Virus record (IMG/VR): IMGVR_UViG_3300024287_000002
Location: 1-41,279 of that record
Direction: 5' to 3' (one strand)
From: a virus
Lineage: Duplodnaviria; Caudoviricetes
DNA: 41,279 nt
The notes below the pieces were generated by a model that made no database searches, was not told where the DNA came from, and worked only from the letters and a program-made list of their open reading frames with translations. A program made the translations under genes and the position numbers. Each line of letters starts with the position of its first letter. Position 1 is the first letter of the stretch. Shown here in pieces: positions 3,315 to 6,700 of the stretch.

Positions 3315-4442
3315 ATGAAACACCTGATTCTCGGCACCACCCTGGCGGCGCTCTTTGCCAGTGCCAGCGCCGGTCCCGTCAGCCAAGCCAGTACCGGCCC
3401 CGGCATTGCCCGGGTCGAGCCGGTCGACCCACCCCCGCCTGCGGAACCCCCGGGGGCGCCGCCGCCACCGCCGGGCGCCGCCATTCCGCCGCGGATGACG
3501 ATCGCCGGGCTGCAGAACCTGCGCCTTGGCATCAGCTTCAAGACATCGAAGGATGATGACGACTGGTGGATGCTGTGCGCCGACGAGGTCGGCTGCGAGC
3601 GCGTCACCCCCACCTATTTTCTCCCCGGGCTGACCGTACGGATCCGGCTTGGCAATGACGGCATCACGCCGATCACCTGGTATCAGCCGACCCAGAAGGT
3701 GGACGCGGCCACCGCCGACCGCCAGGCCTACCTGATCCCGGCTTTTAATGCCAGTGTCGGCGATGCACTCGCCGTGCTGATCAGCCGCACCGGGCCGCGC
3801 GGCGCGCGTGCCCCGTCCACCAGCGGGACCAAGACCGGCACCGGTGGCAAGGACAGCGACAAGCCGCGACCGGCAGGGACGGTCAACCCGTTCAAGGACC
3901 AGGTGGTGATCATCGAAGGACCGGACACACCGGACCCGCCAGAGTACCACCCGCCGCCGTACGATCCGCCCCCGCCACCAGACATGTCGCCGGCGCCGCC
4001 GGAGGATGGCGGGGGCGGTGGCGGCGAGTACCAGGACCCGGACGGCAGCGGGTGGAAGTCGCCCAAGCCAGCCAGTACGCAATGCGTGGCCACACTGCCA
4101 CCACTGCCGCCCGCTGCCGGCTGTGCGGTGACGGTGCCGGCGACGCACCCGCCGCTGCCGCCCGTGCCCGGCGATCCGCCACCACCCCCGCCGCCACCGA
4201 TCAACGGGTGCACCGTATTCGGCGTCGGCTGCGGCGGCATGCCCGAGCCGCCGCTGCCCAATCCGGCCGGTCCGATCTGCGGCTCGAAGTTTGTCGTTGA
4301 CGTGGCGGTCTGCAACCGCAACCGCGCGCTGGGCAAGCTCTCGCGGGTGCAGCACCAGCAGTGCATGGACATTAAATTTGCCGAGCTGGCGCGCTGCCGC
4401 GCGACGACCGGCGCCCAGCAGGTGACCCGGCCCGTGCATTGA
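3315..4442 (+). CDS. Secreted proline-rich, cysteine-containing protein (moron)
   Basis: AGAGGA RBS; Sec signal MKHLILGTTLAALFASASA; several polyproline tracts; 10 Cys; opposite strand to the late genes. Confidence 0.75.
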   Translation: MKHLILGTTLAALFASASAGPVSQASTGPGIARVEPVDPPPPAEPPGAPPPPPGAAIPPRMTIAGLQNLRLGISFKTSKDDDDWWMLCADEVGCERVTPTYFLPGLTVRIRLGNDGITPITWYQPTQKVDAATADRQAYLIPAFNASVGDALAVLISRTGPRGARAPSTSGTKTGTGGKDSDKPRPAGTVNPFKDQVVIIEGPDTPDPPEYHPPPYDPPPPPDMSPAPPEDGGGGGGEYQDPDGSGWKSPKPASTQCVATLPPLPPAAGCAVTVPATHPPLPPVPGDPPPPPPPPINGCTVFGVGCGGMPEPPLPNPAGPICGSKFVVDVAVCNRNRALGKLSRVQHQQCMDIKFAELARCRATTGAQQVTRPVH

Positions 4443-4466
4443 CCTCATCCGACGCTACGCTGCGCG

Positions 4467-4958
4467 TCACGGCGCCAGCCCGTTCTCGCGCAGGAATTCC
4501 TGGCACGCACGCCCCGTGGCCAGGTCCTCCTCCACGGCGAGCGTCAGCGCTCTAAGATCGCGCTCAACGTCTTCTCGAACCAGCCGGCCGGGTGGATCGG
4601 CGCGGTCGCTGCCGGTGGCGCTTTCGGTTTCGGCGGCGGCGGCAGGTCCACCACAGATGGCGGCACCGACGTACACGCGCTGAGTAACAATGCGCTCGCG
4701 CACAGGGGCAAGTTCTTCATTTTTGACCTTCGTGAGGATGGCGTTGGTGGCGTCCTGCTTGATGCTGAGGATGGCGTTGTCTTGGGTGCGCTTGAGGATG
4801 GCCACGGCGTCCTGGGCCGCGCGCTCGGAGACAGCAGCCTTGTGCCCCTCGTCGTACTTGCGGACACCGTAGAACTGCACGCCGCCGGCACTCGCGGCAG
4901 CTACCAGCACCACGGCGCCGGCCTTCCAGTACCAGGGGATGATGTCGGGTAGGATCAA
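4467..4958 (-). CDS. Rz: Inner-membrane spanin (Rz-like)
   Basis: TTG start overlapping the endolysin stop; N-terminal TM helix, helical periplasmic part, C-terminal ACQEF; contains an embedded lipoprotein ORF. Confidence 0.85.
   Translation of the reverse strand: MILPDIIPWYWKAGAVVLVAAASAGGVQFYGVRKYDEGHKAAVSERAAQDAVAILKRTQDNAILSIKQDATNAILTKVKNEELAPVRERIVTQRVYVGAAICGGPAAAAETESATGSDRADPPGRLVREDVERDLRALTLAVEEDLATGRACQEFLRENGLAP
4544..4720 (-). CDS. Rz1: Outer-membrane spanin lipoprotein (Rz1-like), embedded in Rz
   Basis: MKNLPLCASALLLSAC lipobox followed by a Pro-rich segment; different frame, wholly inside Rz. Confidence 0.85.
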   Translation of the reverse strand: MKNLPLCASALLLSACTSVPPSVVDLPPPPKPKAPPAATAPIHPAGWFEKTLSAILER

Positions 4959-5413
4959 GCGGCCACCTGCAAGTCGAACCGGCCCAGGTTTCGCCCGCGG
5001 ATGACCGCGATCAGCTTGTTCGCGTAATCCGGATCGGTGGCGTAACCGGCGGCAGCCACCGCGCACGCCCAGCCTTCGCCGGTCGTCTCATTGAAGCAGG
5101 CGGCATAACGCGAATTCTTGCGGAAGAAGGCGGCGCGGTCTGCCAAGCATTCGGCCCAATCCGCATAGAGCCGGAATTGGTCGATAGCGGCTATCTTTTG
5201 TCCGCTCACATATTCATGGGTATTCACCATTGTGACCGGGCCTTTCCAACTCTTGTCGGCCTTCACGCCGAATAGGTTGCACCCCTGGGCGCGGTTGCCC
5301 CAACTCGACTCCAGCGCTGCCTGGGCGATGGTGAACGAGGCAGGAATGGCGAATTCGCGATGGCATTCCTGTGCGGCCGTAGCGATCTGGTCGATAAACT
5401 CCTGCGGCTTCAT
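4955..5413 (-). CDS. Endolysin, glucosaminidase/FlgJ-like (GH73)
   Basis: IAQAALESSWG, NLFGVKA and GYATDPDYANKL motifs; lies between holin and spanins. Confidence 0.92.
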   Translation of the reverse strand: MKPQEFIDQIATAAQECHREFAIPASFTIAQAALESSWGNRAQGCNLFGVKADKSWKGPVTMVNTHEYVSGQKIAAIDQFRLYADWAECLADRAAFFRKNSRYAACFNETTGEGWACAVAAAGYATDPDYANKLIAVIRGRNLGRFDLQVAA

Positions 5414-5415
5414 TT

Positions 5416-5652
5416 CTAACCTTCTGCGGAACGGCGGTCGCGCCAAGCGCGCTCAAGCCTGATCAATTGAATCCCCAACACGACAATGGCGGTCACGATG
5501 CCGACACCCATCGAGACGACCGATAGCCAGCCCTGGATGACTTCTAGCTTTGCTGCCGCGCCAATTGACGTGGTTCCTGCCGCAATAGCAGTTGCCACCT
5601 TCGGATTACTTGCTGCAGCCTCAATGGCCGAGCGTGCGCTTTCTTCTTTCAT
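5416..5652 (-). CDS. Putative holin
   Basis: 78 aa with hydrophobic helices and a basic C-terminus, immediately upstream of the endolysin. Confidence 0.7.
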   Translation of the reverse strand: MKEESARSAIEAAASNPKVATAIAAGTTSIGAAAKLEVIQGWLSVVSMGVGIVTAIVVLGIQLIRLERAWRDRRSAEG

Positions 5653-5672
5653 TGTTCTTTCTTTCAAGAATG

Positions 5673-6071
5673 CTAGCCACCGCCGACACGATCACGATGC
5701 AGAACCACAGCGAGCCAAGAACTATTAGCATCATGGCGGTCAGGAATGACGAGTCGAAGCCACTGCGCAACGGTCAGCCCCCACATGAAGACGTTGTAGA
5801 GGCTGGGCGGTGCGTAGATCATGTACAGAATCCAGCCTCCGGCATTGCCGACGATGGATGCCAGGAATAGCCATTGCATGTCGCCGCACAGCCGCCTGCA
5901 CAGGAGGGCTGGAGAAACCATCAGCAAGAGCCAATCGAGCAGCGCGGCGCTTCCATGGAATACCAGCATCCCAGCCGGTGAATTCGGAAGCGATCCGGTG
6001 GCATGACCGTGCAAGATCATGAAGACCGTAATCAGCAGCCACATTTGCAAGCGCGCGCGCCACTTGTTCAT
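5673..6071 (-). CDS. 4-TM membrane protein of unknown function
   Basis: 132 aa; four hydrophobic segments carrying polar residues (H, D, N, YN, Q); start coupled to an upstream peptide ORF. Confidence 0.8.
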   Translation of the reverse strand: MNKWRARLQMWLLITVFMILHGHATGSLPNSPAGMLVFHGSAALLDWLLLMVSPALLCRRLCGDMQWLFLASIVGNAGGWILYMIYAPPSLYNVFMWGLTVAQWLRLVIPDRHDANSSWLAVVLHRDRVGGG

Positions 6072-6163
6072 TTCTTCTTCGGTTTTGGCGGCGTGTATTG
6101 CTTCTTTTCGGGAGGACGCTGCTGCCCGCCGCCGGCACCGGTTGCCATCGTCATTTTCTTCAT
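6068..6163 (-). CDS. 31-aa peptide MKKMTMATGAGGGQQRPPEKKQYTPPKPKKK
   Basis: AAAGGAGA RBS just upstream of the ATG; its TGA overlaps the next ATG (ATGA); below the ORF-track size cutoff. Confidence 0.75.
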   Translation of the reverse strand: MKKMTMATGAGGGQQRPPEKKQYTPPKPKKK

Positions 6164-6199
6164 GAATTTCTCCTTTCAGGTTGGTGGTTGAGGTTATTT

Positions 6200-6700
6200 T
6201 TAAACATCTGATTCATAGTCGAAACTTGCAATGGCATTTACCGTCACGGAGTGCCCTGTGCTATCGCCAACCACGCACTGCACGGTGCACTCGCCAACAT
6301 AGCCGAATCTGCCGATTGTATGGCTGACACTGCAGGCTGATGAGGTTGAATTACTGAGCGAGAATCCGGCGTCGTCCTGGATGATGATCGACCACTGGTA
6401 TGAGTAGGGCGCGAGTCCGCCCGATGCGGTGACAAATGGGTGCACAGTGGCGGTAAATGAAGTGTGGCCATTTGCGATGCCAGACGATGCGCCATCCGTC
6501 TCTGTTGCGCTAAATGGGCCTGATCCTCCGCCCCCGCCACCCGCACCAGTCTTCCCATAACAGGAACTGATCGAGATCGAACCCGACGCGACCCCGGCCA
6601 GCGTGCGCACATTGCCATCCCCCAGGCCGATTGCCCCCGATGACCCGATCTCGGCGCGCACCGCAAACAGGCTGATCGGCCCTGAGTTTGGCAGTGTCAT
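6200..6700 (-). CDS. Putative fibre-tip adhesin / receptor-binding protein
   Basis: N-terminal TLPxSGPISL...VRTLAGVASGSIS.S..YGK motif typical of phage fibre-associated proteins; poly-Gly linker; beta-rich Ig-like C-terminus (GGLAPYSYQWS). Confidence 0.6.
   Translation of the reverse strand: MTLPNSGPISLFAVRAEIGSSGAIGLGDGNVRTLAGVASGSISISSCYGKTGAGGGGGGSGPFSATETDGASSGIANGHTSFTATVHPFVTASGGLAPYSYQWSIIIQDDAGFSLSNSTSSACSVSHTIGRFGYVGECTVQCVVGDSTGHSVTVNAIASFDYESDV

What the first reader, a model, noticed from the sequence alone, without database searches (positions are those of the whole stretch)
5673..6180. Hidden peptide plus 4-TM membrane protein pair directly upstream of the holin: candidate peptide-controlled lysis or communication module
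Seen in sequence: a 31-aa ORF (6163-6068, MKKMTMATGAGGGQQRPPEKKQYTPPKPKKK), absent from the ORF track, has a strong AAAGGAGA RBS. It is ATGA-coupled to a 132-aa protein with four hydrophobic helices carrying polar residues (H in TM1, H..A..D in TM2, N in TM3, Y.PP..YN...Q into TM4). The peptide has a compact TGAGGGQQRPP core between a Met/Lys leader and a Pro/Lys tail, and no hydrophobic signal sequence. Holin, endolysin, Rz and Rz1 are already accounted for downstream, so this pair is extra to a complete lysis cassette. Inference: a short precursor-like peptide coupled to a small intramembrane protein is the layout of peptide signalling pairs such as AgrD/AgrB, though I see no sequence similarity to AgrB or AimP/AimR. 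It could be an undescribed ligand/receptor or ligand/processing pair that tunes lysis timing or senses phage density in a Gram-negative phage, or a toxin/antidote pair.
Basis: partly seen in the sequence, partly recalled or inferred. Interest (0 to 1): 0.8.

Follow-up and report, generated by a model that had tools for sequence, protein, structure and literature searches.

The report
Phage peptide sensor wired to holin
This phage carries a tiny overlooked peptide gene, a membrane protein related to the sensor part of bacterial kinases that sit beside similar peptide genes, a hidden third gene and a likely holin; the set recurs in dozens of phages of Gram-negative bacteria and likely lets an infected cell sense peptide spilled by bursting neighbours and adjust when it bursts.

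Summary
Observation confirmed and extended. The pair is half of a four-gene cassette: peptide A (31 aa), four-helix membrane protein B, an unnoticed single-helix gene C nested in +1 frame in B's tail, and holin-like D.

A lies directly upstream of B in 87 of 90 loci found through B (6% at random anchors). Its core is selected as protein, often tandemly repeated, and once relocated to the opposite strand. C occurs in 66 of 66 loci and is the selected frame.

B is homologous (HHalign 98%) to the N-terminal sensor domain of chromosomal histidine kinases in a few Burkholderiales genomes; 41 of 44 of these sensors have their own upstream Gly/Pro-core peptide. Three phage contigs lost A and B together and kept C-D.

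Best reading (0.5): a leaderless peptide released by lysis is sensed on B's periplasmic face and tunes holin triggering. Binding, release route and effect on lysis are untested, D is only weakly holin-like, and Vibrio phage CP-T1 has B without A. Not found in eight literature searches or in this scan's earlier notes.

The parts
6169..6176 (-). Shine-Dalgarno site of peptide A (AAAGGAGA)
   Evidence: an SD-like word of 4 or more bases precedes A in 83 of 92 loci
6068..6163 (-). Gene A: 31-aa leaderless cationic peptide, predicted ligand
   Evidence: 75 distinct relatives, net charge +1 to +16, only 1 of 75 with a 9-residue hydrophobic stretch over 1.6
6110..6145 (-). Conserved core of A, ATGAGGGQQRPP; family pattern [TVIA]G(x)GG[GDNRK]G?[KQ]Q[RK]P, tandemly repeated in several phages
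5673..6071 (-). Gene B: 132-aa four-helix membrane protein (PHROG 15451). Residues 1-112 are homologous to a histidine-kinase sensor domain; the last ~20 residues are an unselected shadow of gene C
5621..5734 (-).
5416..5652 (-). Gene D: 78-aa two-helix, class II holin-like protein (PHROG 13707)
   Evidence: weak holin PHROG hits, E 0.008-0.04; nearest named cluster Phage_holin_2_2, score 0.86, lead only
4955..5413 (-). Endolysin, glucosaminidase family (context; the endolysin family is swapped among relatives)
4467..4955 (-). Rz-like i-spanin, with nested Rz1-like lipoprotein at 4720-4544 (context)
   Evidence: lipobox-like LLLSAC seen in sequence; weak Rz-like hits, E 0.04-0.06

Best explanation
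A-B-C-D is a conserved phage cassette that likely works as a peptide-controlled lysis timer: the leaderless cationic peptide A would accumulate in infected cells, spill out when they burst, likely bind the periplasm-facing pocket of receptor B in neighbouring infected cells, and B would act through the nested single-helix protein C on the likely holin D to shift (more likely delay) lysis. Shown: the four genes, their conservation and selection, B's four-helix model and its homology to the sensor domain of peptide-flanked histidine kinases, joint loss of A+B with retention of C-D in three contigs, and adjacency to an endolysin in most loci examined. Inferred: topology, binding, release by lysis, passage through the outer membrane (perhaps helped by the K/R-rich flanks), that D is the holin, and the direction of the effect.
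For: A upstream of B in 87 of 90 independently found loci vs 171 of 2682 random anchors. Core under protein-level selection. Tandem cores in e.g. L044, L045, L054, L057, L059, L060, L149, L159, L188, as expected of a multi-copy signal precursor. In L055 A lies on the opposite strand at the end of the endolysin operon, converging on B-C-D, so it need not be translationally coupled to B. The B profile hits N-terminal domains of longer membrane proteins in three genomes; 8 of 13 scanned carry HATPase_c. HHalign probability 98.3, E 2e-14, 106 columns; 80.4 with close homologues only. All 16 domains beat 200 local shuffles each, and the kinase-only profile finds the prophage B as the single match in G365. 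41 of 44 sensor loci have an upstream peptide with a leader and [IVL]G...PPP[KR] cores, often tandem, such as VGQNDGGGSRPP; peptides were not used to select them. Divergent response regulators in 3 of 3 checked. Positive-inside counts put the conserved aromatic loops 1 and 3 in the periplasm. C in 66 of 66 loci; overlap syn:nonsyn is 614:477 in C's frame vs 142:932 in B's. L317, L318 and L322 keep C-D without A or B; L319 and L335 have D alone. The endolysin family varies (GH73, GH24, GH108, M15) while the cassette stays. Present in phages of Klebsiella, Escherichia, Vibrio, Edwardsiella and others (93 records).
Against: No experiment on any component. D has no Pfam holin match, and several loci carry a second holin-annotated gene (GTA_holin_3TM in L009, L055, L062; DUF7940 in L003, L005, L006, L020), so D may not be the holin. 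CP-T1 keeps B-C-D with no recognisable peptide anywhere in its genome. B is sometimes not beside an endolysin (phiPLPE). Phage cores are cationic while kinase-linked cores are neutral or acidic, so the resemblance is of layout and Gly/Pro core, not an alignment. The kinase evidence rests on one genus of three fragmented genomes plus one other genome, and no kinase ligand is known. Cores are nearly the same across large B clades, which gives little of the specificity expected of private signals. A 1-3 kDa peptide must cross an outer membrane and survive proteases. Topology rests on charge counts only.
Confidence: 0.5

Rival explanations
1. Same ligand-receptor pair, but acting within one cell: A reaches B from the cytoplasm, or through the first holin lesions, as an internal timer or all-or-none trigger, with no cell-to-cell signalling.
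For: No export signal in 74 of 75 peptides; A and B are ATGA-coupled in most loci; cores are poorly diversified.
Against: B's conserved face is predicted periplasmic. The kinase-linked peptides carry leaders that suggest export. A can be moved to another transcription unit.
Confidence: 0.2
2. A is a superinfection signal: the basic peptide is co-packaged with DNA and ejected into the periplasm by incoming virions, where B senses it and imposes T4-like lysis inhibition or exclusion.
For: Median net charge +7; A often follows tail genes in the late operon. T4 LIN is triggered by superinfection through periplasmic RI (PMC13577005, introduction read).
Against: No virion proteomics seen. Kinase homologues sense peptides with no virion involved. 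In Jedunavirus the cassette is divergent from the endolysin with its own -10-like box.
Confidence: 0.12
3. B-C-D is a peptide-gated suicide or abortive-infection pore (phage-versus-phage defence, or a toxin held by an antidote) independent of normal lysis, and another gene is the true holin.
For: Second holin-annotated genes beside the endolysin in several loci; cassette apart from the endolysin in phiPLPE; the window phage is temperate (integrase).
Against: In the window and in Jedunavirus no other holin candidate lies by the endolysin. Phage KB2 was reported to lack any holin gene (PMC10276810, passage) yet has D. D occurs alone directly before an endolysin-like gene in L335.
Confidence: 0.1
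4. A is a cis-acting leader or ribosome-arrest peptide (QRPP resembles RAPP-type arrest motifs, recalled) that sets translation of B.
For: ATGA coupling; a polyproline-like motif in the window's copy.
Against: PP is not conserved (QRPT, QRE, QRV, KVR). Core position varies and is repeated. A is relocated to the opposite strand in L055. A and B are lost together.
Confidence: 0.04
5. B is an AgrB-like or other intramembrane protease that matures A, or A is a spanin-replacing outer-membrane disruptin.
For: Polar H, D, S, N residues in the helices; A is cationic.
Against: No invariant residue in 147 sequences. H21 and H39 are lost in a whole clade that keeps a peptide. No AgrB or protease profile hit. 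The homologous domain is a kinase input. Rz/Rz1-like genes are present and A is not amphipathic.
Confidence: 0.04

Closest known systems
Peptide pheromone / polytopic histidine kinase systems of Firmicutes (ComC-ComD-ComE, AgrD-AgrC-AgrA; recalled)
   Same: Small precursor gene directly before a multi-pass membrane sensor. The chromosomal relatives found here have the full layout (peptide, kinase, LuxR-type regulator), and a few have ELS..VAGG leaders resembling double-glycine leaders (motif recalled; no Pfam hit).
   Different: No profile match to AgrC/ComD/AgrB. Gram-negative hosts. In the phage the sensor has no kinase, the peptide has no leader or cysteine, and the apparent output is a membrane lysis protein.
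Arbitrium AimP-AimR-AimX (recalled; abstract start of 10.1101/2021.09.20.460909 seen)
   Same: Phage-encoded peptide gene beside its presumed receptor; would report density of recent infections.
   Different: AimP is Sec-secreted and re-imported, AimR is a cytoplasmic TPR transcription factor, and the output is lysis versus lysogeny in Bacillus. Here: leaderless peptide, membrane receptor, post-translational lysis output, also in phages described as lytic.
T4 lysis inhibition RI/RIII/T (PMC13577005 introduction); other LIN systems: N4 (abstract), BSPM4 ORF52 (abstract), CSP1, ICP1 (listing)
   Same: A periplasm-side signal of phage density acts through an antiholin on a holin.
   Different: Those signals are superinfection-derived or unknown, and no dedicated diffusible peptide is described in what I read. 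T4-like and N4-like phages were not among the rows listed for B or D (33 of 93 rows were not listed).
Class II holins (Phage_holin_2_2; phage 21 pinholin S21 recalled) for D
   Same: About 80 aa, a weakly hydrophobic Ala/Gly/Thr-rich first helix, a stronger second helix, a charged tail, and a position before the endolysin.
   Different: No Pfam match; PHROG holin hits only E 0.008-0.04; the window's endolysin has no SAR-like N-terminus; it carries an overlapping upstream single-helix gene.
MASE8 membrane sensor domain (PF20968)
   Same: Membrane-associated sensor domain; weak hits in 4 of 147 B members (best E 5e-4).
   Different: Not reached by the window protein or by the 13 kinase-type proteins scanned; a lead only.

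Membership tests
Agr system (AgrB/AgrD) | B matches the AgrB profile with an invariant catalytic Cys/His | tested here: not met
   no Pfam hit to AgrB in 147 members; NCBIfam none for 4 B proteins; no invariant column
Agr system (AgrB/AgrD) | Precursor with amphipathic leader, Cys/Ser thiolactone core and acidic tail (recalled) | tested here: not met
   75 peptides: basic tails, no conserved Cys
Arbitrium | Peptide with Sec signal sequence | tested here: not met
   maximum 9-residue hydrophobicity over 1.6 in 1 of 75
Arbitrium | Cytoplasmic RRNPP/TPR receptor adjacent | tested here: not met
   the partner is a four-helix membrane protein
Peptide-sensing two-component system | Sensor domain fused to HisKA/HATPase with a response regulator | tested here: not met
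   not in the phage (B ends at 132 aa); met in chromosomal relatives
Peptide-sensing two-component system | Membrane sensor domain homologous to a kinase input domain | tested here: met
Peptide-sensing two-component system | Peptide binds the sensor and changes its output | not testable with these tools
   needs binding or reporter assays
Class II holin (gene D) | Two transmembrane helices, about 70-110 aa, next to the endolysin | tested here: met
   not adjacent in phiPLPE, divergent in Jedunavirus
Class II holin (gene D) | Significant match to a curated holin family | tested here: inconclusive
   none in Pfam; PHROG holins E 0.008-0.04 in 1-3 of 37; Atlas 0.86 lead; some records annotate it 'holin family protein'
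Class II holin (gene D) | Timed, PMF-sensitive membrane lesion that releases endolysin | not testable with these tools
   needs complementation and CCCP triggering
T4-type lysis inhibition | Homology to RI/RIII/T | tested here: not met
   no such Pfam/PHROG hits for B or D; C was scanned only against NCBIfam
MASE8 domain | Score above the Pfam gathering cut-off | tested here: inconclusive
   4 of 147 members, best E 5e-4
Known solved fold family | Specific structural match above generic four-helix bundles | tested here: inconclusive
   best Z 11.6, rmsd 3.5, 111 aligned, a designed bundle; Foldseek no E<=0.001

The most novel reading that the evidence does not exclude
The first peptide communication system of phages of Gram-negative bacteria, with lysis itself as the secretion step. 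A kinase-type membrane peptide sensor is wired, with no kinase and no transcription, straight to a holin through a nested gene, so infected cells count neighbouring bursts and retime their own. Peptide-less CP-T1 would be an eavesdropper or a relic. The same ligand-sensor family forms arrays of up to 29 peptide-receptor pairs per genome in Burkholderiales, a peptide language not described for proteobacteria in the searches made.
Probability: 0.45. Interest if true: 0.96.

Novelty: categorically new. Interest (0 to 1): 0.88.

Why it matters
Peptide signalling among phages is known from Bacillus arbitrium, and density-dependent lysis delay is explained molecularly mainly for T4. This cassette supplies a named ligand, receptor, adaptor and effector in small cultured phages (Jedunavirus, including an E. 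coli phage), so the question 'do phages of Gram-negative hosts signal with peptides, and can lysis timing be set from outside?' becomes testable with a synthetic 12-mer. It would also explain the missing holin reported for phage KB2, bear on yield and behaviour of Klebsiella therapy phages (64 Klebsiella phage records carry B), and define a new membrane sensor domain with paired peptides in proteobacterial chromosomes.

Tried and rejected
Co-folding B(1-114) with A, both as alignments: no answer (score 0.03, mark 0.32); not evidence either way.

Pfam, NCBIfam, PDB sequence and fold searches name no family for B; the Atlas gave only unnamed clusters.

B-C fusion by frameshift: disfavoured, because a Met precedes C's helix in 66 of 66 loci, an in-frame stop lies directly before it in 3, and SD-like words in 25. 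The window's C has no SD, so a frameshift is not excluded there.

C or D as split pieces of the kinases' helices 5-6: no profile match.

Longer fused forms of phage B in the word-indexed database: none (weak evidence).

Genome-collection scans with the close alignment or the core pattern: no cassette; five pattern hits, the one checked (L108) a shadow frame. Clade A6 scan found nothing. Class-level genome search: 1 of 400, a stop-riddled weak hit.

No promoter-like site in window 4300-6500. -10-like hexamers upstream of A in 15 of 49 and 8 of 26 loci vs 3% and 10% background, confounded by AT-rich intergenic DNA.

Peptide-receptor covariation: one clade (L062, L063, L065, L067) pairs core ATGG[DN]GPxKPP with H21F and H39F/Y; a single event, suggestive only. 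The tree was the quick fallback, unrooted, with long branches, so no direction of origin is claimed.

My first peptide rule missed TGTGGG cores and gave 70 of 93; it was relaxed and the control used the relaxed rule.

Literature searches without a description of this cassette: (open-licence PMC and bioRxiv only). Earlier scan notes: nothing relevant. No expression data were sought.

Full report
Setting. The window is a complete 41-kb virus record with terminal repeats: P22-like portal, coat and ejection proteins, a tyrosine integrase and AlpA, so a temperate podophage. A close relative of its cassette lies in a bacterial chromosome (L230), whose B protein is annotated as from Massilia endophytica (WP_231765885.1). 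An Oxalobacteraceae-type host is therefore likely (inference).

Observation. Both ORFs, the SD and the ATGA overlap are as described. B has no Pfam or NCBIfam match and matches only PHROG 15451, of unknown function (140 of 147 members). It belongs to a large family: 335 representatives at 50% identity and 93 cultured-phage records, mainly Jedunavirus of Klebsiella and Escherichia, plus Vibrio, Edwardsiella, Iodobacter, Erwinia and Aeromonas phages. AlphaFold2 gives a confident four-helix bundle with a disordered tail. Fold searches return only generic bundles.

Peptide A is real. Of 106 loci with B, 95 had an intact 5' end and at least 170 upstream bases; 92 have a short basic GG-core ORF ending at B's start. 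Removing five loci found through the peptide motif gives 87 of 90. After collapsing duplicates it is 78 of 81, those five included. Random anchors give 171 of 2682. The three misses are informative. phiPLPE has two cores split by a frameshift in an A-run. L055 has the peptide on the opposite strand, at the end of the endolysin operon, converging on B-C-D. CP-T1 has no such peptide in its whole genome, and its B lacks the usual His. Two passes are marginal: L030 (13 aa, no SD) and L061 (a different repeated core, PMKGR). In 32 distinct cores of the window's type, codon positions 1-2 are almost invariant and position 3 varies freely. Flanks differ in length and sequence but stay K/R/P-rich, none looks like a signal peptide, and several precursors carry the core twice. 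From the other side, of 120 viral loci matching a GGRGKQR pattern, 17 have B just downstream, always with the motif in a small ORF; most other matches are in long frames, startless frames or unrelated short ORFs.

A hidden third gene. In 66 of 66 loci examined (the window and 65 others; one truncated locus gave no B hit), the +1 frame over B's tail encodes a Met-started hydrophobic helix and a basic tail that overlaps the start of D. In the overlap, substitutions are mostly synonymous in this frame (614 vs 477) and mostly non-synonymous in B's (142 vs 932; 132 pairs from 31 segments). B's last 20 residues are therefore a shadow, though B still reads through and is ATGA-coupled to D in 24 of 61 loci. 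A stop directly before the Met in three loci and SD-like words in 25 favour separate initiation.

Gene D and the lysis link. D (PHROG 13707) has two helices and only weak holin hits. The cassette stays beside endolysins of four unrelated families. In Jedunavirus it is divergent from endolysin and spanins with no other holin annotated there, and phage KB2, reported to lack a holin gene (PMC10276810, passages), has D. Against this, several loci have a second holin-annotated gene. Searching from D, 22 of 29 loci have B upstream. Of the seven without, three keep C directly before D with A and B both gone, two have D alone, one looks like a deletion-fusion and one is spurious. This pattern fits D as core effector, C as its partner and A+B as a detachable input module.

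What B is. A search of 401 genomes of one Burkholderiales family with the B profile hit the L230 prophage and, in three other genomes, the N-termini of 290-530-aa membrane proteins; 8 of 13 scanned have a kinase ATPase domain. Profile comparison gives 98.3% over 106 columns (the kinase set was chosen by the B profile, so this is partly circular) and 80.4% with close B homologues alone. All 16 domains beat hydrophobicity-preserving shuffles, and the kinase-only profile finds the prophage B. The independent evidence is context. The three genomes hold 29, 15 and 11 copies. Of 49 examined, 44 had enough upstream DNA, and 41 passed an automated peptide rule; by eye 42, as the rule missed two and passed one wrongly. 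These peptides have a leader (MFD..VLPV, or ELS..VAGG) and [IVL]G...PPP[KR] cores, often in two to six copies. Divergent response regulators complete three loci checked. A fourth genome of another genus has 3 of 3 such pairs, linked to B only through the kinase profile. The three main genomes are one genus, so the copies are not independent lineages. Charge counts place B's N-terminus inside and the conserved H21, Y/F38, H/Y39, W80, Y83, PP, Y92 face in the periplasm (inference).

Mechanism. The simplest reading that joins these facts is a peptide sensor rewired to lysis. The chromosomal peptides need leaders; the phage peptide has none, because lysis can release it. It would reach the periplasm of neighbouring infected cells, bind B, and through C change when D triggers. 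By analogy to lysis inhibition a delay is more likely, but synchronised early lysis is possible. Confidence 0.5. Rivals keep the ligand-receptor core but change the route (intracellular 0.2, virion-borne 0.12) or the output (suicide pore 0.1); leader-peptide and protease or disruptin readings are about 0.04 each. A co-folding job gave no answer and is not counted.

Comparison and novelty. It works like arbitrium in purpose, like ComC-ComD in ligand-sensor layout and like T4 lysis inhibition in output, and it fails the membership tests of each. Eight searches of open-licence PMC and bioRxiv showed no description. I read part 1 of 6 of PMC13577005, abstracts and outlines of the N4 preprint and PMC11657625, and keyword passages of PMC10276810 and PMC3262810. 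The last cites an in silico screen for double-glycine peptides in Gram-negative bacteria (Dirix 2004; title only seen), which may touch the chromosomal peptides. Subscription literature and supplements were not seen. Agr, Com, arbitrium, S21 and RAPP details are recalled. Verdict: a real, widespread, apparently undescribed system with strong genomic support and untested function; interest 0.88.

Noticed in passing
window 3315-4442 (+): A 375-aa Pro-rich protein with a signal-peptide-like start (MKHLILGTTLAALFASASAG), on the opposite strand between the spanins and the integrase; no Pfam or PHROG hit for the 415-aa ORF. Looks like a lysogenic-conversion gene.
   Followed up: partly
G052, G122, G093 (L231-L304) and G002 (L305-L307): An expanded chromosomal family of peptide + membrane sensor pairs (29, 15, 11, 3 copies), some kinases, others with unknown cytoplasmic tails, with diverse tandem cores; deserves its own study, including the exporter, which was not looked for.
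   Followed up: partly
L055 3717-3806 (-): Peptide gene relocated to the end of the converging endolysin/GTA-holin operon.
   Followed up: yes
L317, L318, L322 upstream of D: Natural loss of A and B with C and D retained; L320 looks like a deletion fusing another holin-like gene's start to D.
   Followed up: partly
L068 43784-44478 (CP-T1 gp69-gp70): B-C-D without any peptide in the genome; B lacks the conserved His. Possible eavesdropper or relic.
   Followed up: partly
L037 about 2270-2390 (phiPLPE): Peptide gene with two cores in different frames around an A7 run: sequencing error or slippage.
   Followed up: no
L009, L055, L062, L015, L023, L026, L038, L042, L046, L047, L059: GTA_holin_3TM (hits in L009, L055, L062) or similar-looking genes follow the endolysin where no Rz/Rz1 was noticed while D is also present; that family may do the outer-membrane step rather than be a holin.
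   Followed up: no
L039 2896-3177 and other Jedunavirus records: D is annotated 'microfibrillar-associated 1 family protein' in some records and 'holin family protein' in others; the first is probably a coiled-coil artefact. Gene C is unannotated in the records opened, and A in most.
   Followed up: partly
L149 peptide; L044 peptide: Single precursors carrying two different cores (TGGNGRKR with TGGRGKQR; GGNGKQR with DAGGKAKVR), which could address two receptor types.
   Followed up: no
L030 upstream of B: The core sits at the very end of a longer upstream frame or in a 13-aa ORF with no basic tail, suggesting the core alone suffices.
   Followed up: no
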